This document shows positions 36,265-54,805 of a stretch of DNA of 58,663 nucleotides, in pieces. This DNA comes from Candidatus Woesearchaeota archaeon (GTDB lineage Archaea; Nanobdellota; Nanobdellia; Pacearchaeales; GW2011-AR1): positions 1-58,663 of the forward strand of contig CAZAIT010000001.1 of NCBI GenBank assembly GCA_964485325.1, written 5' to 3'. The notes under the pieces were generated by a model, which worked only from the letters and a program-made list of their open reading frames with translations, was not told the DNA's origin and did no database searches. The translations under genes were made by a program, and so were the position numbers. The stretch's first letter is position 1. Each line of letters starts with the position of its first letter.

Positions 36265-36726
36265 ATGAAAAAGAGTGTTAAAAATAAACGCGGGCTTTCT
36301 CCTGTGCTTGCTAATGTTTTAATGGTGTTGTTAGTTTTAGTTTTGGCATCTATAATTTTTTTATGGGCTCGAGGATTTATTAGTGAACAGATTGAAAAAT
36401 TTGGTACTCCTATTGAAGATGCGTGTTCTCTAGTTAGCTTTGAAGTTAATAAGTTAGGAAGTAATAAATTAGAAGTTATTAATCGTGGGAATATTAATAT
36501 TCGTCATTTGGATATTAAATTGTCGGACGCTGAAGGTAATTCTGAAATGCGTAGATTTGATTTTGAAATAGATGTAGGAGAAGTTATTGTTAGAGATATC
36601 TTTTTGGAGATGACAAGTGGTAAAGATATAGAGAGTACAATTGTTTATCCTGCTTTAATAGGGAATGTCAAGGGCAAAGACTTAAATAAAGTTTTTACTT
36701 GTATGAATGTAGGAGTTAAGTTATGA
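36265..36726 (+). CDS. archaeal type IV pilin-like protein
   Basis: MKKSVKNKRGLSPVLANVLMVLLVLVLASIIFLWARGF. Paralogue of 6104. Cys pair DACS...FTC. Confidence 0.75.
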   Translation: MKKSVKNKRGLSPVLANVLMVLLVLVLASIIFLWARGFISEQIEKFGTPIEDACSLVSFEVNKLGSNKLEVINRGNINIRHLDIKLSDAEGNSEMRRFDFEIDVGEVIVRDIFLEMTSGKDIESTIVYPALIGNVKGKDLNKVFTCMNVGVKL

Positions 36727-37990: not shown

Positions 37991-39520
37991 ATGAGTGATA
38001 TTAGTATAGATTCTAATCCGAAGGTTCCGATGATTCCGAAATTTGAGGATAAGACAAAAATTGATGTGAGGTATATGGTGATTGTTCCGTACGTTTCTAT
38101 TCATGTTTATTATGATGAGAAATCTGGAGAAGTTATTTATGATGTTGAAGAGCCTATTCTTTCTGAAAAAGAAAAGTCGAATTTAGACAAAATTGAACGA
38201 GCTATAAGAGAAGTTGTTGATGTTAGTATGGTTGATGTAGATAATACTAGAGAAAAGTTGTTGGACTATATAGATAAGACTGCTAGGTTAATTATTTCAG
38301 AATTGGGTTTAAATATTGAGGAAGAGAGTTATAAAAAAATGTTTTATTATTTGTATAGAAATTTTATTGGTCTGAATGAAATTGAACCGATAATGAAGGA
38401 TTATTTTATTGAAGATGTAGAGTGTAATGGGATGGGAGAGAATATGTATATTGTGCATAGAGTTTTTAGAAATATTAAGACTAATGTTAAGTTTGATAAT
38501 ATGAATAAATTATCAAGTTTTGTAGAAAAATTGGCTCAAAAGACTGGACGTTATATTTCTTATGCTTCGCCTATTTTAGATGGAAGTTTGCCAGATGGCT
38601 CCAGGGTTAATGCAACATATACCCAAGACATTTCATCCAAGGGTCCTACTTTTACTATTCGTAAATTTACAAAGACTCCATGGACGCCTACACAATTACT
38701 TGGATTTCATACTCTTAGTCCAGAGATGTTAGCGTATTTTTGGATATTATTACAGTATCAATCTAATCTTATGATTGTTGGTGGTACGGCATCTGGTAAG
38801 ACCACCTTGCTAAATGCAATGGCTTTTTTTATTCCACAGGAAAACAGAGTAGTTTCTATAGAGGATACTAGAGAATTGAATCTGCCCAGAGAAAATTGGT
38901 TACCTTCGGTTGTGAGAACTGGAGTTTCCGAAGGAGGAGCTGGAGGAGTTGATATGTTTTCTTTGCTTAGGAGTTCATTTAGACAAAATCCTGATTATGT
39001 AATTGTTGGTGAAGTTAGGGGAAAGGAGGCATCGGTTTTATTCCAGGGAATGGCTTCAGGGCATGCCTCTATCTCTACTATGCATGGTGATTCCGTTGAT
39101 TCAATTATTCGTAGGTTGGAAACTCCACCCATTAGTTTGAGTCCAATGTTGGTTAATGTATTGGATGTAATGGTAATAATGACTCATGCAATCGTAAATG
39201 GGAAAGAAACTAGAAGATTAAGGGAAATTGTTGAGATTGTGAAAGTCGAAGCGGATGGGACTGCTATGACCAATACACCATTTAAGTGGAATCCTGCAGA
39301 TGATAAATTTTATCATGCAAAAGGTAGTAAAATCTTTGATAAGATTGCTCAAAAAATTGGAACTACAACCGAAGAGTTACAGAAAGAGTTTGTAATCCGA
39401 GCCAAATTATTATATGCTTTATTTCAAAATAAAGTTGTGAGCTATGAAGACGTCCAAAGGCTGATAAATGACTATGCAAAAAAACCAGCTGAGATTTTGA
39501 AAAAGTATGGAGTTCAGTGA
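37991..39520 (+). CDS. type IV pilus/archaellum-family secretion ATPase (GspE/FlaI/PilB-like)
   Basis: Walker A GGTASGKTTLLNA, VVSIEDTRELNL, PDYVIVGEVRG, STMHGDS. Confidence 0.9.
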   Translation: MSDISIDSNPKVPMIPKFEDKTKIDVRYMVIVPYVSIHVYYDEKSGEVIYDVEEPILSEKEKSNLDKIERAIREVVDVSMVDVDNTREKLLDYIDKTARLIISELGLNIEEESYKKMFYYLYRNFIGLNEIEPIMKDYFIEDVECNGMGENMYIVHRVFRNIKTNVKFDNMNKLSSFVEKLAQKTGRYISYASPILDGSLPDGSRVNATYTQDISSKGPTFTIRKFTKTPWTPTQLLGFHTLSPEMLAYFWILLQYQSNLMIVGGTASGKTTLLNAMAFFIPQENRVVSIEDTRELNLPRENWLPSVVRTGVSEGGAGGVDMFSLLRSSFRQNPDYVIVGEVRGKEASVLFQGMASGHASISTMHGDSVDSIIRRLETPPISLSPMLVNVLDVMVIMTHAIVNGKETRRLREIVEIVKVEADGTAMTNTPFKWNPADDKFYHAKGSKIFDKIAQKIGTTTEELQKEFVIRAKLLYALFQNKVVSYEDVQRLINDYAKKPAEILKKYGVQ

Positions 39521-39601: not shown

Positions 39602-39772
39602 ATGGTAGATATTGAATTTGTTGGTCAGTTAGTTGATTCTATGCATGAAGCTGTTTTATTATTGGATAAAGCTGTTATAGATAAAGATAAAGAAAGAACC
39701 CATAAGTTAAAAATTTTTATTTTTGATTTACACAATCAGATTTCTAATATTATCGGAGGGCAAAATGTTTGA
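39602..39772 (+). CDS. small helical protein (56 aa), coupled to the platform gene
   Basis: ATG at 39602 and TGA at 39770-39772, overlapping the ATG at 39765 of the next gene (ATGTTTGA). Below the ORF-track size cut-off. Confidence 0.4.
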   Translation: MVDIEFVGQLVDSMHEAVLLLDKAVIDKDKERTHKLKIFIFDLHNQISNIIGGQNV

Positions 39773-41096
39773 GAGTTTAAAGAAAAATCTTGAGCAGGAA
39801 AAAAATATTATTGTTAACATGCAGTCTATTCAGAACACTATGCAAAATGATCCAGCTAATAAGAAATTTTATGATGCAAATTTACAAGGGTTGCTTAGAC
39901 AATTAGCGATTTTGAATAATGCTATTCCTGATTTATTAAAAGAAGGAGGTTTGTCAGCCAAATCTATTAGTCCTAATCCAGTTAGCTCTATAAATAAAGA
40001 TCAAACTAAAAATACTGTTGTCAAAAAAAAACTTCCAGTATATGCAAATAAAATTAGTAAGAATAAAACACAACCTACTCCTAGTACATCTATTCATAAG
40101 TCTGCGCTTAAAGATAGAAAATATGTTACTATTAATAAAGATGATAAAAAGGAATTTTTAAAAAAATTAAAATTATCAGATGGAGCAATGTCTAAAATCA
40201 ATAGAGACGATAAAAAAAAGAGCAAAGTGGTTATCGTTAAACCAAGTTCATTTGCAAGAATTTCAAATAAGCTTTTTAGGAAATATTCTGATAAGTTATC
40301 TCCTCAATTTCTTAATTTAGAAAAAGATTTGAAAAAAGCAAATATTAGATTTTTGTTGTCTACTTATTTATCTATGGCAATTGCCTCAGTAGCGATTGCT
40401 TTTATTTCCGGACTTTTAATTTTTGGGGTATTATTAGCCTTTAGTTTTAGTAATTGGATTTATTTTGCTTTACCTATTGGTTTTTCTGGTGTTGCAATAG
40501 CTATGTTTTATCTGTATCCTTCAAGTGAGGCAAATAGTGTTCAAAAAAAGATTTCTCAAGAGTTACCTTTTGCCACGATTTATATGTCCGCAATTGCTGG
40601 TTCCAATATTGAACCTACCAAAATTTTTAAGATAATTGCTTCTTCTGAAGAGTATCCAAATATAGGTAAAGAAATTCGTAAGATAATTGCACAAGTTCAT
40701 ATTTATGGTTATGATTTAGTGACGTCTTTAAAAAATGTCGCGGTTAGAACATCTAACAAAAGATTATCAGAATTATTTTCTGGGCTGGCTACAAATATAG
40801 CAAGTGGAGGGGAGCTAAAAAATTATCTTGAAAAGAAAGCAGAGAATTTTTTAATGGACTATAGATTAGAGCGACAACAATATTCTGAAATGGCTGGAAC
40901 TTTTATGGATGTTTATATTTCTATTTTAATTGCAGCTCCTTTAGTTCTAATGATGATGTTTATTGTGATGAATGTCGCAGGATTGGGTATGGGTGGATTA
41001 AGTATCACAGCTTTACTAAGTCTGAGTATTGTTGGGATAGCTGTTGTAAATATCTTTTTTATTGTGGTGCTGAATATGAAACAACCGAAAGTATAA
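39765..41096 (+). CDS. T2SSF-domain platform protein (FlaJ/TadC-like, single domain)
   Basis: Long Lys-rich N-terminal region, then a TM-flanked T2SSF-like segment LPFATIYMSAIAGSNIEP...LFSGLATNIASGGELKNYL. ATG at 39765 preferred over the TTG at 39723. Confidence 0.75.
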   Translation: MFESLKKNLEQEKNIIVNMQSIQNTMQNDPANKKFYDANLQGLLRQLAILNNAIPDLLKEGGLSAKSISPNPVSSINKDQTKNTVVKKKLPVYANKISKNKTQPTPSTSIHKSALKDRKYVTINKDDKKEFLKKLKLSDGAMSKINRDDKKKSKVVIVKPSSFARISNKLFRKYSDKLSPQFLNLEKDLKKANIRFLLSTYLSMAIASVAIAFISGLLIFGVLLAFSFSNWIYFALPIGFSGVAIAMFYLYPSSEANSVQKKISQELPFATIYMSAIAGSNIEPTKIFKIIASSEEYPNIGKEIRKIIAQVHIYGYDLVTSLKNVAVRTSNKRLSELFSGLATNIASGGELKNYLEKKAENFLMDYRLERQQYSEMAGTFMDVYISILIAAPLVLMMMFIVMNVAGLGMGGLSITALLSLSIVGIAVVNIFFIVVLNMKQPKV

Positions 41097-41872: not shown

Positions 41873-41918
41873 TTTTATCTTGCGTAAGGTTTATTAGTTT
41901 GTATTGTGTTTTTATTTT

Positions 41919-44345
41919 ATGCCATTTGATGTTGTTATAGGTAGAAATGAAAGTGATAAGAAATCTTTTGGGAATAGAGGTTTGGCTTTTATTGGAAAGA
42001 GTTTTGTAACAATGGGAAATTATACTTCCTTATCTAATCCTATTTTTATGGATGTGGCTAGAAGTCACGTTGTTTTGATATCAGGAAAAAGGGGTTGTCT
42101 TACAGGGGACACGATGATTTTTACTGATAAGGGTTATAAATTTATAAAAGAGTTTAATGAGAAAGAAGATAAAATATTATCATTTGATAAAGATATAAAA
42201 AAGTTTGAGTGGGAAAAGGCAAAGCTTTTGAGTTATCCAATAAAAAATGAGGATTTATTCAAAATAGAATTAAAAGATGGTAGAGTAATTAATTTAACAA
42301 ATGAGCATCCGTTATTATCTTCTTATGGTAAATATATTTATTATAGACGAGCTTGTGATTTGAAGGTTAATGACAAAATAGTTTTACCAACAACTTTACC
42401 CGAAATTAAGAAGGATGAAGAGAGTTTAAGGATTGCAAGATTGCTTGGATTTATTTTAGCAGATGGGACAATTAATATTAGAAAGGGACGTTTTAAGGAT
42501 GGGAGGGGAGCGTGGTACAATGGAACAAAGGCAAGAATTAGAATTAATAATGCTTGTGATGAGGTTTTAGTTTTGGCAAAAGAGGATTTTGAAAAAGAAT
42601 TTGATATCATTGCTAAGAGATATGAGAGAAATGATTGTAATTGTGAGATTGTTGAGACAAAACATCAAAAAGTTGTGAATAAATTTGTAAAGTTGGGAGT
42701 TCCTGTTGGTTTAAAATCTCACAAAATTCGTGTGCCTCAGATTGTATTTGAAAGCTCTAATAAATTTAAGGTAGAATTTATTTCGGCTTTGTTTGATTGT
42801 GATGGTTCTATTTCTAAGAATTCAAATACAATTGATTATTCAAGTAAATCAAGAAAATTTTTAGAAGATTTGCAGATTTTGTTATCTCATTTTAATATTG
42901 AGTCTGTGATAAGAGTCAAAAATGCAAAGTGTAATGGAAAAGTTTTTGAGAATTTTCGGTTGTTTATTACAGATAATAATTCTATTGAAAATTTTAAAAA
43001 AATCGGTTTTCATAGCGAATTTAAGCAAGAGAGATTAAATAAGCATAAATCCAATGGGACAAAGAAAAGGAAGACGCATTATCTATCGGAAAATTTGGCT
43101 TGTAGAAGGATTAAATCTATTGAAAAATTAAAAAATGTTGAAAAAGTTTATGATTTATCTGTTGATAAAAATCATTCTTTTATCGCGAATGGATTAATTT
43201 CACATAACTCTGGGAAGAGCTATACTATGGGAACAATGGCTGAATCTTTATCTGATTTAGGTGCTGAAGAGTCCGGAAATATAGCTTCTGTAATTTTTGA
43301 TACGATGGGAATTTATTGGACTATGAAATATAAAAATGTCAAGGATGCTGGACTTTTGGATGAGTGGGGATTGAAGGCAAAAAATATTCCTATGAGGGTG
43401 TTTGCTCCTTTTGGATATTATCAGGAATATAAAGATAAAGGTGTCGAAGTGGATAGTGAATTTGCAATTAAAATTTCTGAGCTAGAGCCTTCAGATTGGG
43501 TAACGCTTTTTGAGTTAAAGTTTACAGATACTATAGCTGTTGTAATCGAATCAGTTATTAGTGAATTGAGAGAATCAAAACAGAGTTATGGTTTTGAAAA
43601 TATTTATGATTTGATTAACCGTATTGAACACGTAGAGCAGGAAGTTAAAAATTCTGTTACGGCTTTGTTTGATGCAGCCAGGACATGGAAAATTTTTGAT
43701 GAAGAAAAAGGAACTTTGGTTCGAGATTTAATTTCTGCTGGGCAAACTACTGTGATAGATTTGTCTATGTATGCTTCTCTTGGATCGTTTAATGTTAGAG
43801 CTTTAATTATAGGGCTAGTTTCTAAGAAAATTTTTAATGAAAGAATGGCTTCGAGGAAAGACGAAGAAATTCAGGCGGTGCAACATGGTGCAGATTATGC
43901 TAGGTATAGAATTAAACGAGAGATGCCTCTGGTTTGGATATTTGTAGATGAGGCCCATGAGTTTTTGCCAAGAGAAGGAAAAACTCCGGCTACGGATGCA
44001 TTAGTTCAATTACTTAGAGAAGGAAGGCAGCCTGGGGTTTCAATAGTTATGGCAACTCAGCAACCGGGTAAAATTCATACAGATGCGATGACTCAGTCGG
44101 ATATTGTTATTTCTCATAGAGTTACGGCGAAATTGGATGTGGATGCTTTGAACGACATTACTCAGAGTTATATGTATGAAAATATTTCTTCAAAATTAAA
44201 TGGGTTGCCGAGATTGAAAGGCTCTGCAATTATTTTAGATGATAATTCTGAAAGAATTTATCCTATGAGAGTTAGACCAAGATTTACATGGCACGGTGGG
44301 GAAGCTCCTACTGCTATTAGAAAGATAGACGAAGATATCAATTAG
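41919..44345 (+). CDS. HerA/FtsK-superfamily (DUF87-like) P-loop ATPase, interrupted by an intein
   Basis: Exteins join as VVLISGKRG|SGKSYTMGT, giving Walker A GKRGSGKS. Walker B LVWIFVDEAHEF, then MATQQPGKI. ATG at 41919 preferred over the TTG at 41904. Confidence 0.85.
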   Translation: MPFDVVIGRNESDKKSFGNRGLAFIGKSFVTMGNYTSLSNPIFMDVARSHVVLISGKRGCLTGDTMIFTDKGYKFIKEFNEKEDKILSFDKDIKKFEWEKAKLLSYPIKNEDLFKIELKDGRVINLTNEHPLLSSYGKYIYYRRACDLKVNDKIVLPTTLPEIKKDEESLRIARLLGFILADGTINIRKGRFKDGRGAWYNGTKARIRINNACDEVLVLAKEDFEKEFDIIAKRYERNDCNCEIVETKHQKVVNKFVKLGVPVGLKSHKIRVPQIVFESSNKFKVEFISALFDCDGSISKNSNTIDYSSKSRKFLEDLQILLSHFNIESVIRVKNAKCNGKVFENFRLFITDNNSIENFKKIGFHSEFKQERLNKHKSNGTKKRKTHYLSENLACRRIKSIEKLKNVEKVYDLSVDKNHSFIANGLISHNSGKSYTMGTMAESLSDLGAEESGNIASVIFDTMGIYWTMKYKNVKDAGLLDEWGLKAKNIPMRVFAPFGYYQEYKDKGVEVDSEFAIKISELEPSDWVTLFELKFTDTIAVVIESVISELRESKQSYGFENIYDLINRIEHVEQEVKNSVTALFDAARTWKIFDEEKGTLVRDLISAGQTTVIDLSMYASLGSFNVRALIIGLVSKKIFNERMASRKDEEIQAVQHGADYARYRIKREMPLVWIFVDEAHEFLPREGKTPATDALVQLLREGRQPGVSIVMATQQPGKIHTDAMTQSDIVISHRVTAKLDVDALNDITQSYMYENISSKLNGLPRLKGSAIILDDNSERIYPMRVRPRFTWHGGEAPTAIRKIDEDIN
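42096..43208 (+). mobile_element. intein with LAGLIDADG homing-endonuclease domain (371 codons, in frame)
   Basis: Starts CLTGDTMIF, block B NLTNEHPLL, dodecapeptide motifs LLGFILADGTI and ALFDCDGSI, ends VYDLSVDKNHSFIANGLISHN followed by Ser. Inserted inside the P-loop. Confidence 0.85.
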
Positions 44346-44392
44346 TGGGTTATTGTAGTAATGTTTAAATATTATAATATTGTGATTAGTTT

Positions 44393-44893
44393 ATAAAAAA
44401 GGGGCTTAGTCCAACTATTGGTGTTGTTCTTCTAGTCTTATTGGTGATTATTATTTCTGGAATAGTGTTTGTTTGGAGTAAGGATTTAATTTCAAATGAT
44501 AAAGAGCAAGCTTTAGGGGAAAAAATGTGTAAAGAAGTTGAGCTCGCTGTTGGGGATTTTTGTAAAATGAGAGTAGATGGGATTGTGGAGGGAGATGAAT
44601 ATCATATAAAGTTTAGTGGAAGGAATGATGCTACAGGAGTGGGACTATATGGTTTTCTTATGATTGTAGATTATGCGACCGGAGATGCCTCTGCAAAATC
44701 TATATCTATTCCGAGTTTACCATATAGTGAAATGGCAGTTGGTGATGTTAGGAGTATTTCAAGTGATGCAATAAAGGATGCTTCTTTAATAGAACGTATT
44801 ACAATTTTACCTAAAATAGAAGTTGAAGAGAAAGTATTTACTTGTGAAGAAGAAGAAAAAGTTATGACATGGGAGGAGATTGTAGCTTGTTAA
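44393..44893 (+). CDS. archaeal pilin-like protein lacking a canonical start codon
   Basis: In-frame upstream extension of ORF 44441 reads (ATA)KKGLSPTIGVVLLVLLVIIISGIVFVW, a textbook class III signal peptide. In-frame TAG at 44387-44389. Only ATA at 44393 is available as a start. Confidence 0.5.
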   Translation: MKKGLSPTIGVVLLVLLVIIISGIVFVWSKDLISNDKEQALGEKMCKEVELAVGDFCKMRVDGIVEGDEYHIKFSGRNDATGVGLYGFLMIVDYATGDASAKSISIPSLPYSEMAVGDVRSISSDAIKDASLIERITILPKIEVEEKVFTCEEEEKVMTWEEIVAC

Positions 44894-44894
44894 T

Positions 44895-47800
44895 ATGAAA
44901 AAACTTTTTTATTTTGCTTTATTTTTTTCTTTGTTAGTTATGGGTTTCGCATCGGCATCTATTAATATTAATCCTAATAGTGTAGAACTGGGAAAAGAAG
45001 TTGTAATTACTATTGATATGAATAGTTATGGTAATTATGTCTATTTTTATGATGACGCTGAAAACATGATAAGTTCTTACAGTTTAGGTTGTGCAGATAA
45101 TTTGTGTTCTAAAAAGACAACCTTTCAATATTTAATTGATGATTTTGATTTAGGAAATTATAAGATAGCTGTTTATTCTCACGACGATAACAAGTGGTTG
45201 TTTAGTAATTTTGAAGTTGTTGAATATAGATGTTCTGATAGAACTTTAGTTGGTGAGTGTTCTTCTACTAAACCTAAATATTGTGGAGAGGGAGAAATTT
45301 TGGTTGATGATTGTTCGAAGTGTGGATGTCTTGATGGGTATAATTGTCAGGAAGATGAGACATGTACGTTTACTCCTTTTTGTGGGGATGATAATTGTGA
45401 CACAATAGAAAGTTGTAATATCTGTCCTGATGATTGTGGAAGATGTGAGTATTCTGTAGGTCCAAATAAAAAAAATGAAGAATTATATTCTGACAAAGAA
45501 GTTTTTTTAGTTTCGGATAGTGACTGGAAAGAAGTTTTACCATTTGTCTCTGCTACAGTTTGGACGGAAAGAGATGAAATTCGAAAATATCCTTTTTTAG
45601 TTTATCATGAAGAGTTTACTTCTTGTTCTCTTTCTGGTAATAAATGCTATAAGTATGATATAGATTCCTCGATCTATTTTATGCAACAATATAACCCAGA
45701 TAAATTAACAATTATTGGAGAAACTCCGCAAGAAATAGATGATTTATTAATTTATGAAAATGATGGAAGCGATTTGAGTGGACCAGAATTATCTCTAGAC
45801 CATATTCAAAGAATTTCTAATGATGATTATTTAACTTATTGGGAAACTTTTGATAAAGTTGTTTACGTTGAGGATGATTATGAATTAGCTCTGTTGGCTT
45901 CTACTTATGCGTCATTAATTAATGCGCCTTTAATTATTGAAGGAAACATCCATGATTCTTTGGGAATATTCAATGGTAGAAACGTTATTTGTATTGGGGA
46001 AGTTTTACCTAGTGGAAAGGCTTGTGGTGAGAAATATAATTTAGAAGAGCTGCGAGATAAGTATAAAACAGAGACTAATACAAATAAAGTTATTTTGATT
46101 AACCCAACGGATTGGGGTACTGGTATTTCTTCATATTTTAATTTTAATCCAGATAAAACTAGTGGTAATAATAAACATCTTTATACTAAAACCTCTTTAA
46201 TTTCTCCTATATTAGCTTCATCTAAGCATGAATTAATATTAAGCACAAATGAAACAGATTATCTTAAAATTGATAAGTTTATTGCTCCTGGAATTTCGGA
46301 TATGGATTATTTGACGATTATGGCCGCATCAAATGTTATTCCACATACAAAGTTTAGACAGAGGATGGCTCATGCTTTTGATTGGGCACTTGATTCATCT
46401 CATTATGCAGATATAAATGGAGATTATATTCCAGATGTAGCTGTCGGAAGAATTGCTGGATTGACTAGTTCAGATGTATCTAGTTATGTAGCAAGAGCTA
46501 TTTTTTATGACACTTTCCCAAGAACAGAAAATACAAAGTTTATGGCAAGTTCTTTTCTCGGTTCTTTAGCAGCTATAGCTATTGAGAGGTCATTTGCATT
46601 TTCTTTAGCGGGATATAATTCAGAAAGTAAGACAACTATACTTCCTGCTAATTGGGATTGGAATTTTTTTACTTCAGAAGATTGGAAAAACCAAGATTTA
46701 ATATTTTATTTAGATCATGGAAGTACTGATTGGTCTGGAATTTATTCCTCTAAAGTTCCTCTCTTAGATAATTCTCTTGTTTTTTCAGTAGCCTGTGACA
46801 CTGCCGCTACATACAGACCTAATTCTTTCTGGGCGATAGCAATAAGAAAGGGAGCTATTGGATATTATGGAGCTACTAGTATTACTGGATTAAATAATAA
46901 TTATATTGATATTTTAAATGAGATTTATTCTTTTAGAACAACTACAATGGGGGGCGCTTTTAAAGAAAAATGGAGTACTTTTATTATGCATGGGATGACT
47001 ACCCTAATTGGAGACCCTACATTAGATATTAATCCTCCACATCATATTGGTCTTCAACCCAGAAGCAATATATGTAACCCTGAAAAAGAATTATGTTTAA
47101 CGAATGGTCAATGTTGTGATGATTTACGGTGTGAACTTTTTACTTGTAAAGGTTGTCAAGAGGCAGCAAATATTTGTTTATTTAATACTGATTGTTGTAG
47201 TGGATTACAGTGTAGTTGGGCTACATGTTCAGACTGTAATAATAATAATGAAGGATGTCTTGTTAAAAATGATTGTTGTGAAAGTACTGCTGGATGTTAT
47301 ATGTTTGAATGTGGTTTGCGAGAAATAGATGAAAGTTGTTTATTAAATACTGATTGTGGCATAGATGCTTTCGGTTGCCATATGTTTGAATGTGGTTTGC
47401 GAGGGATAGGGGAAAGCTGTCTCTTTAATGATGATTGTGAAAGAAATTTAGATTGTGCAGGTTGGGCATGTACTGATGGAGAGAATGGACAGAGTTGTAG
47501 TAGTGCTGAAGATTGTAGTTCTGATTTTTGTTATTGGGGAACATGTATGGATAGATTTCCAAATGGAAATGGGTGTCTTCTTGATAATGATTGTGCCTCT
47601 GACAGATGTAGTTGGTTCGTGTGTAGAAGTACTGGTTATGTGGATCCTTTAAATGATTGTGGTGGAGCTGACTCAAATTGTGGTACTAAACCGAATTGTT
47701 TAGATTGTAATGCAGTAAATCCTCCTGTTGAACCTGATTGTAAAGCGGGAGATAAGTTATGGCACAAATACTATCATTGTGATGGAGCCGAATGTGCAAA

Positions 47801-48107
47801 AGATATTTGGCGATCTGAAACCGAAACATGTACATGGGATTGTAAAGGTAGCGCATGTACTAATGGAAATAATGGAGAGAGTTGTAGTGATGATGGAGAT
47901 TGTAAATCTGATTTTTGTTATTGGGGGACATGTAAAGCATGTTATACTCCTGGAATCAAAGTTGGTGATTTGACTTTTAAATCTCCAGATCACTGTTGTA
48001 GTGGATGGGAACAAAAAACAAAGTCGGTATGTCGGCTTTGGGGTGGAGCTGGTTGCAAATGGTATTCTCATACAAAAATAGTAAATGATTATAAAGCGTG
48101 TAGATAA
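44895..48107 (+). CDS. 1070-aa secreted protein: C25 (gingipain)-like cysteine peptidase core plus C-terminal cysteine-rich repeat array
   Basis: Signal peptide LFYFALFFSLLVMGFASA. His/Cys dyad context IFYLDHGSTDWSG (His608, nt 46716) and LVFSVACDTAA (Cys634, nt 46794). From nt 47073 there are tandem C-x-n-DCC/DC-x-n-C modules. Confidence 0.75.
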   Translation: MKKLFYFALFFSLLVMGFASASININPNSVELGKEVVITIDMNSYGNYVYFYDDAENMISSYSLGCADNLCSKKTTFQYLIDDFDLGNYKIAVYSHDDNKWLFSNFEVVEYRCSDRTLVGECSSTKPKYCGEGEILVDDCSKCGCLDGYNCQEDETCTFTPFCGDDNCDTIESCNICPDDCGRCEYSVGPNKKNEELYSDKEVFLVSDSDWKEVLPFVSATVWTERDEIRKYPFLVYHEEFTSCSLSGNKCYKYDIDSSIYFMQQYNPDKLTIIGETPQEIDDLLIYENDGSDLSGPELSLDHIQRISNDDYLTYWETFDKVVYVEDDYELALLASTYASLINAPLIIEGNIHDSLGIFNGRNVICIGEVLPSGKACGEKYNLEELRDKYKTETNTNKVILINPTDWGTGISSYFNFNPDKTSGNNKHLYTKTSLISPILASSKHELILSTNETDYLKIDKFIAPGISDMDYLTIMAASNVIPHTKFRQRMAHAFDWALDSSHYADINGDYIPDVAVGRIAGLTSSDVSSYVARAIFYDTFPRTENTKFMASSFLGSLAAIAIERSFAFSLAGYNSESKTTILPANWDWNFFTSEDWKNQDLIFYLDHGSTDWSGIYSSKVPLLDNSLVFSVACDTAATYRPNSFWAIAIRKGAIGYYGATSITGLNNNYIDILNEIYSFRTTTMGGAFKEKWSTFIMHGMTTLIGDPTLDINPPHHIGLQPRSNICNPEKELCLTNGQCCDDLRCELFTCKGCQEAANICLFNTDCCSGLQCSWATCSDCNNNNEGCLVKNDCCESTAGCYMFECGLREIDESCLLNTDCGIDAFGCHMFECGLRGIGESCLFNDDCERNLDCAGWACTDGENGQSCSSAEDCSSDFCYWGTCMDRFPNGNGCLLDNDCASDRCSWFVCRSTGYVDPLNDCGGADSNCGTKPNCLDCNAVNPPVEPDCKAGDKLWHKYYHCDGAECAKDIWRSETETCTWDCKGSACTNGNNGESCSDDGDCKSDFCYWGTCKACYTPGIKVGDLTFKSPDHCCSGWEQKTKSVCRLWGGAGCKWYSHTKIVNDYKACR

Positions 48108-48108
48108 A

Positions 48109-48927
48109 ATGGAAAATGGAAAAATAATGGCTATAAGAATATTTATCTTAATAATTATGATTCAATTAGTTAGTGCTACTTCTATTATGGTAGATATGGA
48201 TGAAGCATATGAAACGGGAGACGGAATTTCTTTTAATTATACTTTTTTATCTGATGTTTCACAAGATATAGAGTATATCGCATCTGTTAGTTGTCCAAAT
48301 GCACCTAATGAATTAATTGAGATTCTAAATATGAGTTTAATTGCAGATATTCCATTTACTAGAACTTACGTTTATATGACTAATCTTAATGATGATATAG
48401 AACCTCAGTCATGTGAAGCAATAGTAGCGATGATGAGTCCGGAAGAAACGTCAAAGAAGGAATCTTTTCAGATAGTTACTAGTCCGATTTTTGATTTTCG
48501 AATTTTAATTTGTAAAGATGAATCCTGTCTTGATCAATCCAAATTTTTTATCTTAAATAATAATATTTATTTTGATTATTTTTCTGAAGAAACTCAAGAC
48601 ATTACAATAATATCTACTCTAAAATATCCAGATGGTAACATCGAATCTATAGAATTACCATCTTCTATTAAGTTGGAACAGCTTGGAACTTATGAATTAG
48701 AAGTTATTTCTTCTAAAAATGGATATAAAGATGTGGAACAATCTATTCAATTTGGAGTGATTGAGAAAAATGCTGAAATTCATGAAGGGTTCTTACCTAT
48801 CGAGAAAGATAAACCTGAAATAGAAGAAGAATCTCTTGTTTTTATTATATTAGGTGTTTTATTGTTGGTTATTGTTGGATTTATTTTGTTTAAGGTTGTA
48901 AAGAAAAAATATTTTTGTGAATATTAA
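48109..48927 (+). CDS. secreted, C-terminally membrane-anchored hypothetical protein
   Basis: Signal sequence IMAIRIFILIIMIQLVSA. C-terminal TM LVFIILGVLLLVIVGFILF plus KVVKKK. ATG at 48109, 2 nt after the preceding stop. Confidence 0.55.
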   Translation: MENGKIMAIRIFILIIMIQLVSATSIMVDMDEAYETGDGISFNYTFLSDVSQDIEYIASVSCPNAPNELIEILNMSLIADIPFTRTYVYMTNLNDDIEPQSCEAIVAMMSPEETSKKESFQIVTSPIFDFRILICKDESCLDQSKFFILNNNIYFDYFSEETQDITIISTLKYPDGNIESIELPSSIKLEQLGTYELEVISSKNGYKDVEQSIQFGVIEKNAEIHEGFLPIEKDKPEIEEESLVFIILGVLLLVIVGFILFKVVKKKYFCEY

Positions 48928-51529: not shown

Positions 51530-52354
51530 ATGAAATTAAAAAAAATACATTGGATGGGTATGGGAGTTGGAATTTTATTGGCTACAGGTTCAGTACTTAT
51601 GTTTTCTGGAACTAATTTGATGTATTTTTTATTAGCTGTTTCTTTGGTTATAGGATCACTTCCCTTTATGTTGGGTTTTCTTTCCACACAAGATAAGTAC
51701 AGAGAGAAGGAAGAGAAATTTTTGGAATTTACAAGAGATTTAGTAGAGAATGTTCGATCTGGAACTCCTATTACTAAGAGTATTATGAATTTGAATAATA
51801 GAAATTATGGAACTTTAACTAAACATGTGGATAAGTTAGCAAATCAATTATCAATTGGAATTACTTTAACTGATGCACTTAAAACTTTTGCGAGAGACAC
51901 TAGAAGTAAAGTTATCTCTAGGGCTGTTGATTTAATTAGCGAAGCTGAAAGATCAGGTGGAAAAATAGATGTTATTTTAGGATCGGTTTCTGATTCAGTA
52001 AATCAAATTGAGCAACTTCGGAAAGAGAGAAAAGCAGCAATTTCAAATTTGGTTACACAGGGGTATCTAATTTTCTTTATTTTTATTATTATTATGTTGG
52101 TGTTAGAATTTAAAATTTTGCCACTTGTTTCTGGTTTAGGTGGGACAGAAGGTTTGGGAATGGCTACAAGTTCTTCTAATTCTGATGACCTTTCTACTCC
52201 CTTATTTGTGATGATATTGGTTCAATCATTTTTTGCTGGACTTGTTATTGGAAAAATTGCGGAAGGGAGTGTTAAGAATGGATTTAAACATTCATTCATT
52301 TTATTAGCAGTAACTTTGTTAATTACAACGGGTGCGAGAGCTTTGTTTAAATAA
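51530..52354 (+). CDS. T2SSF-domain membrane protein (TadB/FlaJ-half-like)
   Basis: Two N-terminal TM helices, cytoplasmic helical domain ...LANQLSIGITLTDALKTFA...SEAERSGGKIDVIL..., C-terminal TM helices. Confidence 0.65.
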   Translation: MKLKKIHWMGMGVGILLATGSVLMFSGTNLMYFLLAVSLVIGSLPFMLGFLSTQDKYREKEEKFLEFTRDLVENVRSGTPITKSIMNLNNRNYGTLTKHVDKLANQLSIGITLTDALKTFARDTRSKVISRAVDLISEAERSGGKIDVILGSVSDSVNQIEQLRKERKAAISNLVTQGYLIFFIFIIIMLVLEFKILPLVSGLGGTEGLGMATSSSNSDDLSTPLFVMILVQSFFAGLVIGKIAEGSVKNGFKHSFILLAVTLLITTGARALFK

Positions 52355-52520: not shown

Positions 52521-53432
52521 ATGAAACTTGATGAGAATTTAGTAGCAGTTCATGCTTATTTATGTGGTGATGGGTATGTTATACAAAATCCGAAAATGCA
52601 AAAGAAAAAATATTATATGATAGGATTTAGAAATACCAATTTTGTTTTATTGAAAGATTTTCAGAATAAATTTGAAAAAACATTTGGGAAGAAGCCCTAT
52701 ATTACTAACGAGGGGAGGTGTAGGATTGGGTCAAAAGACATTTACAAAAAATTAACCGAAAATTTTGGGAGTTTTTATTCTTACTATTGGGTATTCCCAA
52801 AGTTGAGTGATAGATTTTCTAGAATTTGGCTTAGAGCGTTTTTTGATTGTGAAGGCTGGGTTGTTTGTAAGAGTCACCAGAGTAGATGTATAGGGCTAGA
52901 TTGTGTTAATAAAGAGGGGATATATAAGATTAAAAAGGCATTAGAAAATATCGGAATAATGTGTAAGATTAGAAGTAGAAATACTCGAAATATATTTTCG
53001 TTAGGTATTTTTGGAAAAGAAAATTTAATTAAATTTAGAGATGAAATTAATTTTTTACATCCTTTAAAAAAGAATAAATTGGATGAAGTTATAAAAGATT
53101 TTGTTAATTATAATTGGGAATTCCCCATAAGGAAAAACGAATTAAAAGATTTTATTAAAAATATATTTAGGGATAAAGCAAAAGTCAAAAGAGGAAGTTG
53201 GGTTGTTAGAATAGTTTCGAATAAAGAAAAGAATTTAATTCAATTGCAGAAAAAATTAGATAATTTATTTAATGTAGAGTCTAAAGTGAATGTGAATAAA
53301 AATGGAATTGGAACTGTTTATTATGAAATGAGTATCAACAAAAAAGAAGAGATTAGAAAACTAATTAAATATGGTTTAATAAGCGAGAATGAGAAGAAAA
53401 AATGGTTAAGTTCAAAAAAATCGATGACGTGA
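52521..53432 (+). CDS. free-standing double-motif LAGLIDADG homing endonuclease
   Basis: Dodecapeptide motifs LVAVHAYLCGDGYVI and WLRAFFDCEGWVV. 3' end overlaps the rtcB start by 31 nt. Confidence 0.8.
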   Translation: MKLDENLVAVHAYLCGDGYVIQNPKMQKKKYYMIGFRNTNFVLLKDFQNKFEKTFGKKPYITNEGRCRIGSKDIYKKLTENFGSFYSYYWVFPKLSDRFSRIWLRAFFDCEGWVVCKSHQSRCIGLDCVNKEGIYKIKKALENIGIMCKIRSRNTRNIFSLGIFGKENLIKFRDEINFLHPLKKNKLDEVIKDFVNYNWEFPIRKNELKDFIKNIFRDKAKVKRGSWVVRIVSNKEKNLIQLQKKLDNLFNVESKVNVNKNGIGTVYYEMSINKKEEIRKLIKYGLISENEKKKWLSSKKSMT

Positions 53433-54805
53433 CTTGGAAAATAGAAAAAGAAGGAAAAATGAATGTTCCTATAATTGTTTATGCGTCTGAAAAGTTGTTA
53501 GAAAAAATAAAACAAGATGATACTATGAAACAAGCTATGAATATGGCATCGTTGCCGGGCGTTTTGGAGAATGTAATCGTTTGTCCAGATGCTCATCAAG
53601 GATATGGCGCATGTATTGGTGGAGTTGCTGCATTTGATATCGAAGAGGGTGTTATTTCTCCAGGTGGCGTTGGTTATGATATAAATTGCTCCGTTCGTTT
53701 ACTGAAGACAAATTTAAATATAAGGGATTTAGCTGGAAAAGAAAAAGAAATTTCCAAATCATTATTTCTTGCTATACCTTCGGGAGTTGGGAGAAAAGGG
53801 AATATCCTATTGAATAATAGAGAATTAGATAAGGTTTTAATTAATGGAGCACAATGGGCTGTTGAAAAAGGGTACGGCATAAAAGATGATTGGATTCATA
53901 CTGAAGAAGAAGGGAAAATCACTGGAGCTAATCCCTCATCTGTATCTCAGAGAGCTAAGGGAAGAGGGTTGCATCAGTTAGGATCTCTTGGCGCAGGAAA
54001 CCATTTTATAGATATTCTCGCTGTTGATAAAATTTTTGATAAAAATATCGCAAAGGTTTTTGGATTGGAAGAAGGCCAGATTGTCATTTTAATTCATTGT
54101 GGATCTAGAGGGCTTGGACATCAAGTTGCCTCAGATTATATTAGATTAATGGAAGATAAATATGGTTATCCAAGTTTTGATAGGAGTCTAGCTAATGCTC
54201 CAATTAAGTCTAAGCCTGGTAAAAAATATTTTGAGGCGATGGCTTGTGCTGCTAATTTTGCATTTGCGAATAAACAAATAATTACACATCTTATTAGAGA
54301 AGAGATGAAAAAGTATTTTTCAAATTTTAAGGCAGATGTGGTATATGATGTTTGTCATAATATTGCGAAGTTTGAGAAATTTAACGAAAAAGAAGTCTTA
54401 GTAATGAGAAAAGGTGCGACTCGAAGTTTTGGCCCTGGGAGGATTGAAGTTCCAGAAGATTATAGAAAAGTTGGACAGCCTGTTTTGATACCTGGGTCTA
54501 TGGGAACTGCGAGTTATGTTTTATGCGGCACAAAGAAAGCAGAAAAAATTTCTTGGGGTTCAACGGCTCATGGTGCAGGTAGAGTTAGAAGTAGAAAAGA
54601 AGCTCATAAAAAAATGAGTTTTGAAAAAGCAAAAGAAGATATGGAAAAACGTGGAGTTTTTGTTGAATTTGGAGGGCAAAAAGGTTTAATTGAAGAATCA
54701 CCTTTTTCATATAAAAATATTGATGAAGTTGTTAGAATTTCAGATGAGGCTGGGCTTGGAAAGAAAATTGCGAAGCTGAAGCCGTTAATTGTTATAATTG
54801 GATAA
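53402..54805 (+). CDS. rtcB: RNA 3'-phosphate ligase RtcB
   Basis: CPDAHQGYGACIGGVAAFD, GYDINC, GAGNHF, HCGSRGLGHQV, SAPF-like C-terminus EESPFSYKNIDEV. Confidence 0.92.
   Translation: MVKFKKIDDVTWKIEKEGKMNVPIIVYASEKLLEKIKQDDTMKQAMNMASLPGVLENVIVCPDAHQGYGACIGGVAAFDIEEGVISPGGVGYDINCSVRLLKTNLNIRDLAGKEKEISKSLFLAIPSGVGRKGNILLNNRELDKVLINGAQWAVEKGYGIKDDWIHTEEEGKITGANPSSVSQRAKGRGLHQLGSLGAGNHFIDILAVDKIFDKNIAKVFGLEEGQIVILIHCGSRGLGHQVASDYIRLMEDKYGYPSFDRSLANAPIKSKPGKKYFEAMACAANFAFANKQIITHLIREEMKKYFSNFKADVVYDVCHNIAKFEKFNEKEVLVMRKGATRSFGPGRIEVPEDYRKVGQPVLIPGSMGTASYVLCGTKKAEKISWGSTAHGAGRVRSRKEAHKKMSFEKAKEDMEKRGVFVEFGGQKGLIEESPFSYKNIDEVVRISDEAGLGKKIAKLKPLIVIIG

What the first reader, a model, noticed from the sequence alone, without database searches (positions are those of the whole stretch)
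44895..48107. 1070-aa secreted protein combining a gingipain-like His/Cys dyad with a long C-terminal cysteine-knot-like repeat array
After a signal peptide and a Cys-rich N-terminal part (CGCLDGYNCQEDETC, CGDDNCDTIESCNICPDDCGRC), the centre carries YLDHGSTDWSG and, 26 residues later, VFSVACDTAA. This is the HG...(A)C arrangement of clan CD C25 peptidases. The last 340 residues or so are tandem modules such as CLTNGQCCDDLRCELFTCKGC, CLFNTDCCSGLQCSWATCSDC, CLLNTDCGIDAFGCHMFECG and CSSAEDCSSDFCYWGTC. It lies directly after a pilin gene in the pilus locus. I do not recognise this fusion of a protease-like core with dozens of disulfide-forming Cys in an archaeal surface protein.
Basis: partly seen in the sequence, partly recalled or inferred. 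Interest (0 to 1): 0.6.

Follow-up and report, generated by a model that had tools for sequence, protein, structure and literature searches.

The report
Surface gingipain-like protease with partner gene
This is a secreted gingipain-type (C25) cysteine protease of a tiny DPANN-like archaeon with an intact active site and a tail of small cysteine-rich modules; it belongs to a known family, but it always travels with an unnamed membrane-anchored partner gene.

Summary
ORF 44895-48107 encodes a 1070-aa protein with a signal peptide and 75 Cys, 54 of them in the last 345 residues. His608 and Cys634 lie 26 residues apart.

- Pfam Peptidase_C25 scores 49.8 bits against a cutoff of 23.
- A profile of 56 homologues aligns His608 and Cys634 onto the catalytic His211 and Cys244 of gingipain RgpB.
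- The dyad is kept in about 98% of some 195 homologues.
- A confident model of the core (pLDDT 93) has RgpB as its best PDB match, followed by separases.

The architecture is not unique. There are 637 sequence clusters, mostly DPANN archaea and CPR bacteria, some already named "C25 family cysteine peptidase". About 29 close relatives carry Cys-rich tails.

New here:
- The tail has a 27-residue period. Three six-Cys units have knottin-like spacing, followed by four-Cys units that have lost Cys I and IV together.
- A homologue of the downstream 280-aa membrane-anchored protein follows the C25 gene in 8 of 8 metagenome loci. In a phylum sample it follows in 16 of 20 loci and is fused in 2 more.
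- Close relatives also keep the upstream pilin-like gene.
- The gene is accessory: 24 of 401 genomes in the phylum sample.

Verdict: a new variant of a known kind, of moderate interest.

The parts
44393..44893 (+). Pilin-like gene, 166 codons. It has a class III prepilin N-terminus (KKGLSPTIGVVLL...), no ATG/GTG/TTG start (ATA at 44393), and Cys as its last residue. It is the first gene of the cassette in the near clade.
   Evidence: Stop-to-stop reading. Homologues beginning MKKG[LI]S lie directly upstream of the C25 gene in L018, L019/L020, L021, L023 and L026, with E 1e-23 to 1e-45.
44895..48107 (+). Gene for the C25-family cysteine peptidase homologue (1070 aa, P0001).
44895..44960 (+). 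Signal peptide (aa 1-22; the ASA|S cleavage site is inferred).
   Evidence: Read from the sequence. The model shows a helix at aa 2-16.
44961..45224 (+). Ig-like / CARDB-like beta-sandwich domain (aa 23-110).
   Evidence: pLDDT above 90 and all-beta. Foldseek hits to Ig-like and CARDB domains.
45225..45461 (+). N-terminal Cys-rich linker (aa 111-189, 14 Cys). It is variable among homologues.
   Evidence: pLDDT is 41-76.
45462..46079 (+). Family-specific alpha/beta region in front of the C25 match (aa 190-395). It is conserved with the catalytic part as one 546-aa unit and has no Pfam model.
46080..47069 (+). Gingipain-like catalytic region (aa 396-725). The Pfam C25 match covers aa 498-711.
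46716..46718 (+). Codon of the catalytic His608 (DHG, directly after strand 602-606).
   Evidence: Aligned to RgpB His211. Kept in 193/196 homologue rows. Strand position.
46794..46796 (+). Codon of the catalytic Cys634 (AC, directly after strand 628-632). It is the only Cys left unpaired by the parity count.
   Evidence: Aligned to RgpB Cys244. Kept in 191/194 homologue rows. Parity count.
47073..47315 (+). Three 27-residue six-Cys units (aa 727-807), with spacing C-x6-C-x5-CC-x4/5-C-x4-C-x2.
   Evidence: Beta-hairpins at 745-752 and 772-779, pLDDT 61-68.
47316..47633 (+). Four homologous four-Cys units (aa 808-913). In these, Cys I and Cys IV are both replaced.
   Evidence: In-register listing. 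81-nt tandem repeat.
47634..48104 (+). Terminal Cys-rich region (aa 914-1070). It holds one more four-Cys unit (aa 997-1013) and a C-terminal element ending ...VNDYKACR that many near homologues share.
48085..48927 (+). Partner gene 'p280': signal peptide, an ectodomain of about 200 aa with four invariant Cys, a C-terminal transmembrane helix and a basic tail. It overlaps the 3' end of the C25 gene by 23 nt if it starts at 48085; the alternative ATG is at 48109.

Best explanation
The gene encodes a secreted clan CD, family C25 (gingipain-type) cysteine endopeptidase of a small-genome, DPANN-like archaeon.

Shown:
- The 546-residue conserved core (aa 190-735) has a gingipain-like fold.
- The His608/Cys634 dyad sits at the ends of two adjacent beta-strands and is conserved across the family.

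Inferred:
- After Sec export, the enzyme is held at the cell surface by the membrane-anchored product of the next gene (p280). The peptidase has no anchor of its own. p280 is genetically locked to C25 genes, and in some genomes its ectodomain is fused directly in front of the core.
- The variable N-terminal Ig-like domain and the C-terminal array of disulfide-stapled mini-domains act as rigid, protease-resistant spacer or binding modules. The array has three knottin-spaced six-Cys units, then four-Cys hairpin units.
- The enzyme cuts extracellular or host-surface proteins, either to gain peptides or to remodel the cell-cell contact.
- In this clade it is co-transcribed with a dedicated pilin-like protein and sits in a type IV pilus locus, so it may be displayed with or on that fibre.
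For: Membership and active site:
- Pfam PF01364 scores 49.8 bits against a cutoff of 23; 43 of 50 homologues also match it.
- A profile of 56 homologues hits RgpB (1cvr, 4ief) at E 3.4e-4, with HG and AC aligned to His211 and Cys244.
- His608 is kept in 193/196 homologue rows and Cys634 in 191/194.
- The core model has pLDDT 93.2 and pTM 0.94. Its top Foldseek hits are RgpB (E 6.9e-9 and 1.3e-7, TM 0.52 normalised to the target length), followed by separases and CHAT.
- Strands 602-606 and 628-632 directly precede His608 and Cys634.

Export and Cys parity:
- There is a signal peptide and no other hydrophobic segment.
- Of the 75 Cys, 74 fall into even-numbered groups, leaving Cys634 as the odd one.

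Partner gene:
- A p280 homologue lies immediately downstream in 8 of 8 metagenome loci, E 1e-42 to 1e-66.
- In a phylum sample it is adjacent in 16 of 20 loci. In 2 more its ectodomain is fused N-terminal to the core (L032 aa 31-245, then core from aa 242; also L042).

Pilin gene:
- A homologous pilin-like gene lies upstream, overlapping by 4-7 nt, in L018, L019/L020, L021, L023 and L026.

Tail:
- The 27-aa register is clear, and Cys I and Cys IV are present or absent together: 53 both, 65 neither, 15 mixed, in 133 modules from 56 proteins.
- The same modules end a second large surface protein of this genome.

Precedent: extracellular C25 peptidases are reported, and found expressed, in other archaea (PMC6461988; also PMC9563170).
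Against:
- RgpB's third catalytic residue Glu152 and its S1 residue Asp163 have no counterpart in the alignment, so specificity cannot be predicted.
- The anchoring role of p280 rests only on gene linkage and fusion. p280 could equally be a pro-domain-like inhibitor, a chaperone or a substrate.
- The tail model has low confidence (pLDDT mostly below 50).
- No clear disulfide oxidase was found. There is no VKOR, and the one membrane-anchored thioredoxin-fold protein reads CPYG, not CxxC. The genome is 79% complete.
- The window carries rubrerythrin, which hints at an anaerobe (sequence reading), so the Cys might bind metal instead of forming disulfides.
- The gene was found in only 1 of 24 congeners and 24 of 401 genomes of the phylum sample, so it is not central to the lifestyle.
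Confidence: 0.68

Rival explanations
1. The protein is a PorU-like processing enzyme (a sortase or C-terminal signal peptidase) rather than a digestive protease. On this reading, the C25 domain cleaves and perhaps transfers the C-terminus of a dedicated surface substrate encoded beside it. The candidates are the pilin-like protein, whose last residue is an invariant Cys, or p280. The enzyme would thereby mature or attach a pilus-associated component.
For: The C25 gene is tightly and conservatively linked to p280, and in the near clade to a pilin-like gene, with overlapping or abutting reading frames. The pilin-like proteins all end in ...I-x-x-C. It is established knowledge that the C25 family includes PorU, the sortase-like peptidase of the type IX secretion system. 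The gene sits in a pilus assembly locus.
Against: No recognisable sorting signal is shared by the neighbours. Most C25-p280 loci have no pilin gene. The fusion of the p280 ectodomain to the N-terminus of the core fits a subunit or pro-domain better than a substrate. Nothing in the sequence separates a transpeptidase from a hydrolase.
Confidence: 0.12
2. The Cys-rich tail (and the N-terminal linker) binds metal ions rather than forming disulfides. On this reading it is a metal-clustered or metal-scavenging surface domain of an anaerobe.
For: No VKOR was found, and no CxxC-type DsbA. Rubrerythrin and a desulfoferrodoxin-like gene lie in the window (by reading). Some homologues carry the 'putative metal-binding motif' Cu-binding_MopE.
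Against: Cys counts are even in every extracellular segment, and the only odd Cys is the catalytic one. Cys I and Cys IV are lost together in the four-Cys units, as expected of a bonded pair. The spacing and the sub-threshold profile hits point to disulfide mini-proteins: Dickkopf_N, UPF0506 and DUF7107, plus Toxin_12 in one homologue.
Confidence: 0.1
3. The protein is mainly an adhesin, and its C25 domain is a catalytically idle scaffold. On this reading the Ig-like and Cys-rich modules bind the host cell.
For: It has a multi-domain surface architecture whose binding modules vary between homologues (dockerin, F5/8 type C, LamG, PKD). It lies in a slot that holds other secreted surface proteins in congeners.
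Against: The His/Cys dyad and its flanking Gly and Ala are kept in about 98% of homologues. That would not be expected without selection on catalysis.
Confidence: 0.05

Closest known systems
Gingipain R (RgpB) of Porphyromonas gingivalis, type peptidase of MEROPS family C25 (PDB 1cvr, 4ief)
   Same: It is the best structural match of the core and the only PDB family reached by the sequence profile. The His-Gly...Ala-Cys dyad is aligned to His211 and Cys244. Both are secreted, multi-domain proteins with Ig-like accessory domains.
   Different: Identity is only about 15%. Glu152 and the S1 residue Asp163 are not matched. An extra conserved alpha/beta region of about 200 residues precedes the catalytic part. 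There is no type IX secretion C-terminal domain and no recognisable gingipain pro-domain. The host is an archaeon with Sec export. The dedicated partner gene p280 has no counterpart in the gingipain loci I know of (from memory).
PorU, C25-family sortase-like peptidase of the type IX secretion attachment complex
   Same: It belongs to the same peptidase family, is surface-located, and works within a multi-protein surface complex encoded with partner proteins. This rests on established knowledge and was not tested here.
   Different: There is no type IX system in archaea. No cargo class with a shared C-terminal signal was identified here. The relationship is an analogy only.
Extracellular C25 'gingipain-like' peptidases predicted in sediment archaea (Thermoprofundales/MBG-D) and in Nanohaloarchaeota
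   Same: They are archaeal C25 homologues bearing signal peptides, proposed to degrade external proteins and found expressed in metatranscriptomes (PMC6461988). C25 with a signal peptide is also listed for a DPANN lineage (PMC9563170).
   Different: Those reports are catalogue entries. They describe no domain anatomy, no partner gene, no pilin linkage and no Cys-module tail.
Knottins (inhibitor cystine knots) and the two-disulfide 'disulfide-directed beta-hairpin' (the latter from memory)
   Same: The first three tail units have six Cys spaced 6-5-0-4(5)-4, which is inside the knottin consensus as I know it. There is a predicted hairpin between Cys V and Cys VI. The four-Cys units lack exactly Cys I and Cys IV, the pair that bonds in knottins.
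   Different: No profile match reaches threshold. The knotted topology was not shown. The units are tandem parts of a large protein rather than free mini-proteins. The KNOTTIN database stated in 2017 that knottins were still absent from archaea (PMC5753296).

Membership tests
Peptidase family C25 (Pfam PF01364; MEROPS clan CD) | Profile score above the curated family threshold | tested here: met
   49.8 bits (full protein) and 51.5 bits (core) against a cutoff of 23. 51.7 bits in the genome scan. 43 of 50 homologues also match.
Peptidase family C25 (Pfam PF01364; MEROPS clan CD) | Catalytic His-Gly ... Ala-Cys dyad at the positions of gingipain His211 and Cys244 | tested here: met
   The profile-to-RgpB alignment places H608-G609 on H211-G212 and A633-C634 on A243-C244 (positions counted from the printed alignment).
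Peptidase family C25 (Pfam PF01364; MEROPS clan CD) | Dyad conserved among homologues | tested here: met
   His 193/196, Gly 182/195, Ala 157/194, Cys 191/194 homologue rows.
Peptidase family C25 (Pfam PF01364; MEROPS clan CD) | Caspase/gingipain alpha/beta fold, with His and Cys at the C-terminal ends of adjacent strands | tested here: met
   Model pLDDT 93.2. RgpB is the top PDB hit at E 6.9e-9, followed by separase and CHAT. Strands 602-606 and 628-632 precede the two residues.
Peptidase family C25 (Pfam PF01364; MEROPS clan CD) | Peptidase activity | not testable with these tools
   This needs expression and an enzyme assay.
Arg-gingipain proper (RgpB-like subtype) | Third catalytic residue Glu152 and S1 Asp163, which give Arg specificity | tested here: not met
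   In one search, Glu152 falls in an RgpB-only insertion and Asp163 faces a hydrophobic profile position. The local alignment is weak, so the specificity remains unknown.
Arg-gingipain proper (RgpB-like subtype) | Type IX secretion C-terminal sorting domain and N-terminal pro-domain | tested here: not met
   No Pfam hit other than C25 in the whole protein at E<=1. No hits in the N-terminal pieces at E<=10.
Knottin / inhibitor cystine knot | Six Cys with consensus spacing | tested here: met
   Units 727-751, 754-778 and 781-806 have spacing 6,5,0,4,4 / 6,5,0,4,4 / 6,5,0,5,4. The other units have only four Cys.
Knottin / inhibitor cystine knot | Disulfide connectivity I-IV, II-V, III-VI with knotted topology | tested here: inconclusive
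   Joint presence or absence of Cys I and Cys IV supports a I-IV bond: 53 both, 65 neither, 15 mixed. The sequences are related, so this is not independent evidence. The other two bonds and the knot were not tested, and tail pLDDT is below 70.
Knottin / inhibitor cystine knot | Significant match to a known knottin family profile | tested here: not met
   Only sub-threshold hits were found: Dickkopf_N at 0.02-0.066, UPF0506 at 0.034, DUF7107 at 0.019, and Toxin_12 at 0.001 in one homologue.
Archaeal type IV pilus locus (genomic context) | T2SSE-type ATPase, T2SSF-type platform protein, and pilins with a class III signal peptide | tested here: met
   T2SSE at 37991-39520 and T2SSF at 39723-41096; Pilin_N at 36265-36726 is a sub-threshold match (19.3 bits, cutoff 25.2). 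A class III N-terminus at 44393.

The most novel reading that the evidence does not exclude
The 27-residue six-Cys units may be true cystine knots. If so, DPANN archaea carry tandem knottin arrays at the C-termini of surface proteins, a fold class that a curated database recorded as absent from archaea in 2017. In addition, the C25-p280 pair (plus a pilin in one clade) may be a self-contained, horizontally mobile 'protease display' cassette shared between DPANN archaea and CPR bacteria.
Probability: 0.3. Interest if true: 0.6.

Novelty: new variant of a known kind. Interest (0 to 1): 0.42.

Why it matters
DPANN archaea and CPR bacteria are tiny cells that depend on other cells, and little is known about how they touch and feed on them. 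This work defines a surface protease module that recurs in both groups, and each of its parts can be tested directly:
- an intact gingipain-type active site;
- a previously unnamed membrane partner that is almost always encoded next to it;
- in one clade, a dedicated pilin.

The tail units would extend knottin-type mini-proteins to archaea if their knot is confirmed. They may also be useful as very small, stable scaffolds.

For genome annotation, p280 has no Pfam model and no name in any source. Its strict linkage to C25 genes gives it a first functional context.

Tried and rejected
Searches that gave nothing:
- Single-sequence search of the full protein against PDB sequences found nothing.
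- NCBIfam has no family for it.
- Pfam on aa 1-202 and aa 190-502 alone gave no hit, even at E<=10.
- Searching the tail alone in the 5.8-billion-protein set found only the nearest homologue, so the tail evolves too fast for sequence search.
- A profile of p280 against PDB gave nothing meaningful.
I used two phylum-wide genome-search runs instead.

Searches that were uninformative:
- Foldseek with the full-length model was dominated by Ig-like hits, with separase on top and no gingipain in the 50 rows shown. It became clear only with the core-only model.

Ideas considered and not adopted:
- The aa 190-395 region might be a CWB2-like cell-wall-binding repeat. Only 4 of 50 homologues gave sub-threshold CW_binding_2 hits (best E 1.1e-4). 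None of the ten closest did, and there was no structural hit.
- I looked for disulfide-forming enzymes. No VKOR was found. The one thioredoxin-fold membrane protein has CPYG instead of CxxC.
- A C25 gene fixed in the pilus locus of the genus is rejected. Five congeners keep T2SSF-p247-HerA ... methyltransferase-like-rubrerythrin synteny but carry other genes in the slot.
Full report
**1. Observation**

The ORF 44895-48107 (+) exists exactly as described and translates to 1070 residues.

His608 (CAT, 46716-46718) and Cys634 (TGT, 46794-46796) are 26 residues apart.

The protein has 75 Cys:
- 16 in aa 23-189
- 5 in aa 190-725
- 54 in aa 726-1070

The tail is 15.7% Cys, against 1.6% for the window's other long ORFs. 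The pattern C-x5-C(C)-x4-6-C-x4-C occurs eight times in the tail; 5000 shuffles of the same residues gave a mean of 0.54 and never more than 5.

The tail also repeats at the DNA level. There is an 81-nt unit repeated 2.4 times at 47244-47438, and a 97-nt pair at 85% identity. The array therefore grew by internal duplication.

**2. The protease core**

Sequence evidence:
- Pfam assigns Peptidase_C25 to aa 498-711 at 49.8 bits, against a gathering score of 23.
- A single-sequence search of PDB found nothing.
- A profile of 56 homologues hit gingipain R (1cvr, 4ief) at E 3.4e-4.
- Counting along the printed alignment, DHG of the query falls on His211-Gly212 of RgpB and AC falls on Ala243-Cys244. 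These are the catalytic residues known for that enzyme.

Conservation:
- Among the homologue rows that cover these columns, His is kept in 193/196, the following Gly in 182/195, the Ala in 157/194 and the Cys in 191/194.

Structure:
- A structure prediction of the core alone (aa 190-735, 50-row alignment) is confident, with pLDDT 93.2 and pTM 0.94.
- Its best PDB matches are RgpB (E 6.9e-9 and 1.3e-7, 384-387 aligned columns), followed by separases and the CHAT protease. All of these are clan CD enzymes.
- In the model both residues sit directly after beta-strands (602-606 and 628-632), which is the clan CD arrangement.

Two gingipain-R-specific residues, Glu152 and Asp163, have no counterpart in the alignment. 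Substrate preference is therefore open.

**3. The family**

- The whole 546-residue core, not only the Pfam-matched half, is conserved as one unit.
- An exhaustive search found 637 clusters (50% identity) at E<=1e-3, of which 417 are at E<=1e-30.
- Named members come from Woesearchaeota, Pacearchaeota, Nanoarchaeota, Diapherotrites and Aenigmatarchaeota. Some are labelled Parcubacteria, Patescibacteria or Omnitrophota. Several are already called 'C25 family cysteine peptidase'.
- Accessory domains differ widely between homologues (dockerin, F5/8 type C, LamG, PKD, MopE-type motifs).
- Many homologues have large insertions at two points of the core.
- The region aa 190-395 is an alpha/beta part with no Pfam model.

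**4. The tail**

Written in a 27-residue register, the first three units read C-x6-C-x5-CC-x4(5)-C-x4-C-x2. The next units are clearly homologous, but have Leu in place of the first Cys and Gly or Glu in place of the second Cys of the CC pair.

I counted 133 such units in 56 homologues. The first Cys and the CC pair occur together in 53, are both absent in 65, and are mixed in 15. Because the proteins are related, this is suggestive and not a statistic. It is still what a I-IV disulfide predicts, and I-IV is the knottin connectivity.

Further points:
- The spacing 6-5-0-4-4 lies within the knottin consensus as I know it.
- Sub-threshold profile hits go to small disulfide-rich families: Dickkopf_N, UPF0506 and DUF7107, plus a spider-toxin family in one homologue.
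- The tail model is poor (pLDDT 61-68 for the first units, below 50 beyond), so the fold is not shown.
- All extracellular segments have even Cys counts, and the only odd Cys is the catalytic one.
- The closest ~29 homologues have Cys-rich C-terminal tails.
- Many near homologues end in a shared ...CGTH-x-VNDYK-x-C-[KR] element.
- A second large surface protein of the same genome ends in the same units.
- The KNOTTIN database paper of 2017 states that knottins were still absent from archaea (PMC5753296). I found no later report in the held library.

**5. Neighbours**

The upstream gene is a pilin-like protein. Its class III signal sequence is visible only when the frame is read from the preceding stop codon. 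No canonical start codon exists, and ATA stands where homologues have ATG. It ends 1 nt before the C25 ATG.

The downstream gene, p280, overlaps or abuts the C25 stop. It encodes a signal peptide, an ectodomain of about 200 residues with four invariant Cys, and a C-terminal membrane helix.

In eight metagenome loci of C25 homologues with quite different surroundings (SecY operon, SMC, topoisomerase, arginase and so on), a p280 homologue always follows immediately, at E 1e-42 to 1e-66.

I then ran two searches over the same 401 genomes of the phylum and inspected 20 loci:
- p280 is directly downstream in 16.
- Its ectodomain is fused in front of the core, in one reading frame, in 2.
- It is absent in 2.

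p280 relatives have no Pfam domain and no name in any source. The homologous pilin-like gene is kept only in the near clade: L018, L019/L020, L021, L023 and L026. L022 has a different class III signal protein, and the other loci have none.

**6. Distribution**

- The genome is 646 kb in 38 contigs, 79% complete, with one C25 gene.
- Only 1 of 24 congeners and none of 16 other relatives had a homologue.
- 24 of 401 genomes of the phylum sample had one.
- Five congeners keep the synteny T2SSF, p247, HerA-like ATPase, then a variable slot of 0.7-2.6 kb, then the convergent 285-aa gene and rubrerythrin. Three of those slots hold unrelated predicted signal-peptide-bearing proteins instead; the other two hold ORFs without an evident signal peptide.

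The cassette is therefore an accessory insert in a variable slot of the pilus locus. It is not a fixed part of the pilus machine.

**7. Reading**

The best-supported explanation is an active, secreted C25 cysteine peptidase that works at the cell surface together with p280. Gene linkage plus fusion argue for physical association. Because only p280 has a membrane anchor, tethering is the simplest role, but a pro-domain-like regulator is not excluded.

The Cys-module array and the Ig-like domain are variable accessory parts, most likely rigid spacers or binding modules.

Rival readings are:
- a PorU-like processing enzyme for the neighbouring proteins;
- a metal-binding tail rather than a disulfide-bonded one (no clear disulfide oxidase was found);
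- an inert adhesin, which the conserved dyad makes unlikely.

**8. Novelty**

The peptidase family and its presence in archaea are known (PMC6461988, PMC9563170; names). Three things appear undescribed in what I could search:
- the subfamily's extra N-terminal region;
- the near-obligate partner gene, and the clade-specific pilin gene;
- the knottin-spaced tandem tail.

I rate it a new variant of a known kind, of moderate interest.

Noticed in passing
window 44387-44443: The pilin-like gene upstream of the C25 gene has no ATG, GTG or TTG before its class III signal sequence. ATA (44393) stands where the homologues in L018, L019 and L021 have ATG (MKKG[LI]S...). An AT-rich TTTAAATA box lies about 25 nt upstream. 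A leaderless transcript with a non-canonical start, or a recently damaged start codon, are both possible.
   Followed up: partly
window 41904-44345; L013-L017: The HerA/DUF87-type ATPase of the pilus locus carries an intein with a LAGLIDADG endonuclease (Pfam Intein_splicing and LAGLIDADG_3). Its orthologues in five congeners are 74-84% identical over the C-terminal extein (post-intein part) but only about 441-460 aa long, so they lack the intein.
   Followed up: partly
L013 4563-5657, L014 5035-5568, L016 4287-6890 (congeners G005, G024, G008): The slot between the HerA-like gene and the convergent 285-aa gene holds a different secreted protein in each congener: a 365-aa protein, a 178-aa Cys-rich protein, and an 868-aa protein with CGDG/CDGIDNDCDG motifs. 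It looks like a variable 'cargo or adhesin' position of the pilus locus.
   Followed up: partly
G000 contig C4, about 41894-42136 (L003 1-1782): A second very large surface protein of the same genome (open frame 2386 aa) ends with the same six- and four-Cys units as the C25 protein. The module array may therefore be a shared C-terminal element of this organism's surface proteins.
   Followed up: partly
L032 (G349:C25 788-4795) and L042 (G359:C2 2546-6772): In two genomes the p280 ectodomain is fused in frame directly in front of the C25 core, without the membrane helix. This is a gene-fusion hint that the two proteins interact.
   Followed up: yes
P0007, P0008, P0015, P0016, P0019-P0022, P0025, P0026, P0029 (C-termini): Many near homologues end in a conserved, Trp- and Cys-rich element finishing ...CGTH-x-VNDYK-x-C-[KR]; the window protein ends ...KIVNDYKACR. 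Its strictly terminal position might mean a sorting or attachment signal.
   Followed up: no
homologues P0019, P0024, P0036, P0047, P0064 and others: Large insertions of 100-500 residues interrupt the C25 core at two fixed points, equivalent to about aa 245-253 and aa 455-470 of the window protein. They look like nested accessory domains.
   Followed up: no
window 52521-53432 and 53402-54805: A free-standing LAGLIDADG endonuclease ORF lies directly in front of, and overlaps, a complete rtcB gene. A second T2SSF-type gene sits just upstream at 51530-52354.
   Followed up: no
G000 contig C13, L046 985-1965: The only thioredoxin-fold candidate for extracytoplasmic disulfide formation is membrane-anchored but reads CPYG, not CxxC, at the active-site position. 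No VKOR was found in the 79%-complete genome. It is puzzling that an organism with such Cys-rich surface proteins shows no clear disulfide-forming enzyme.
   Followed up: partly
window 54838-58662: A 1275-codon ORF runs off the end of the window. It is probably another giant surface protein.
   Followed up: no
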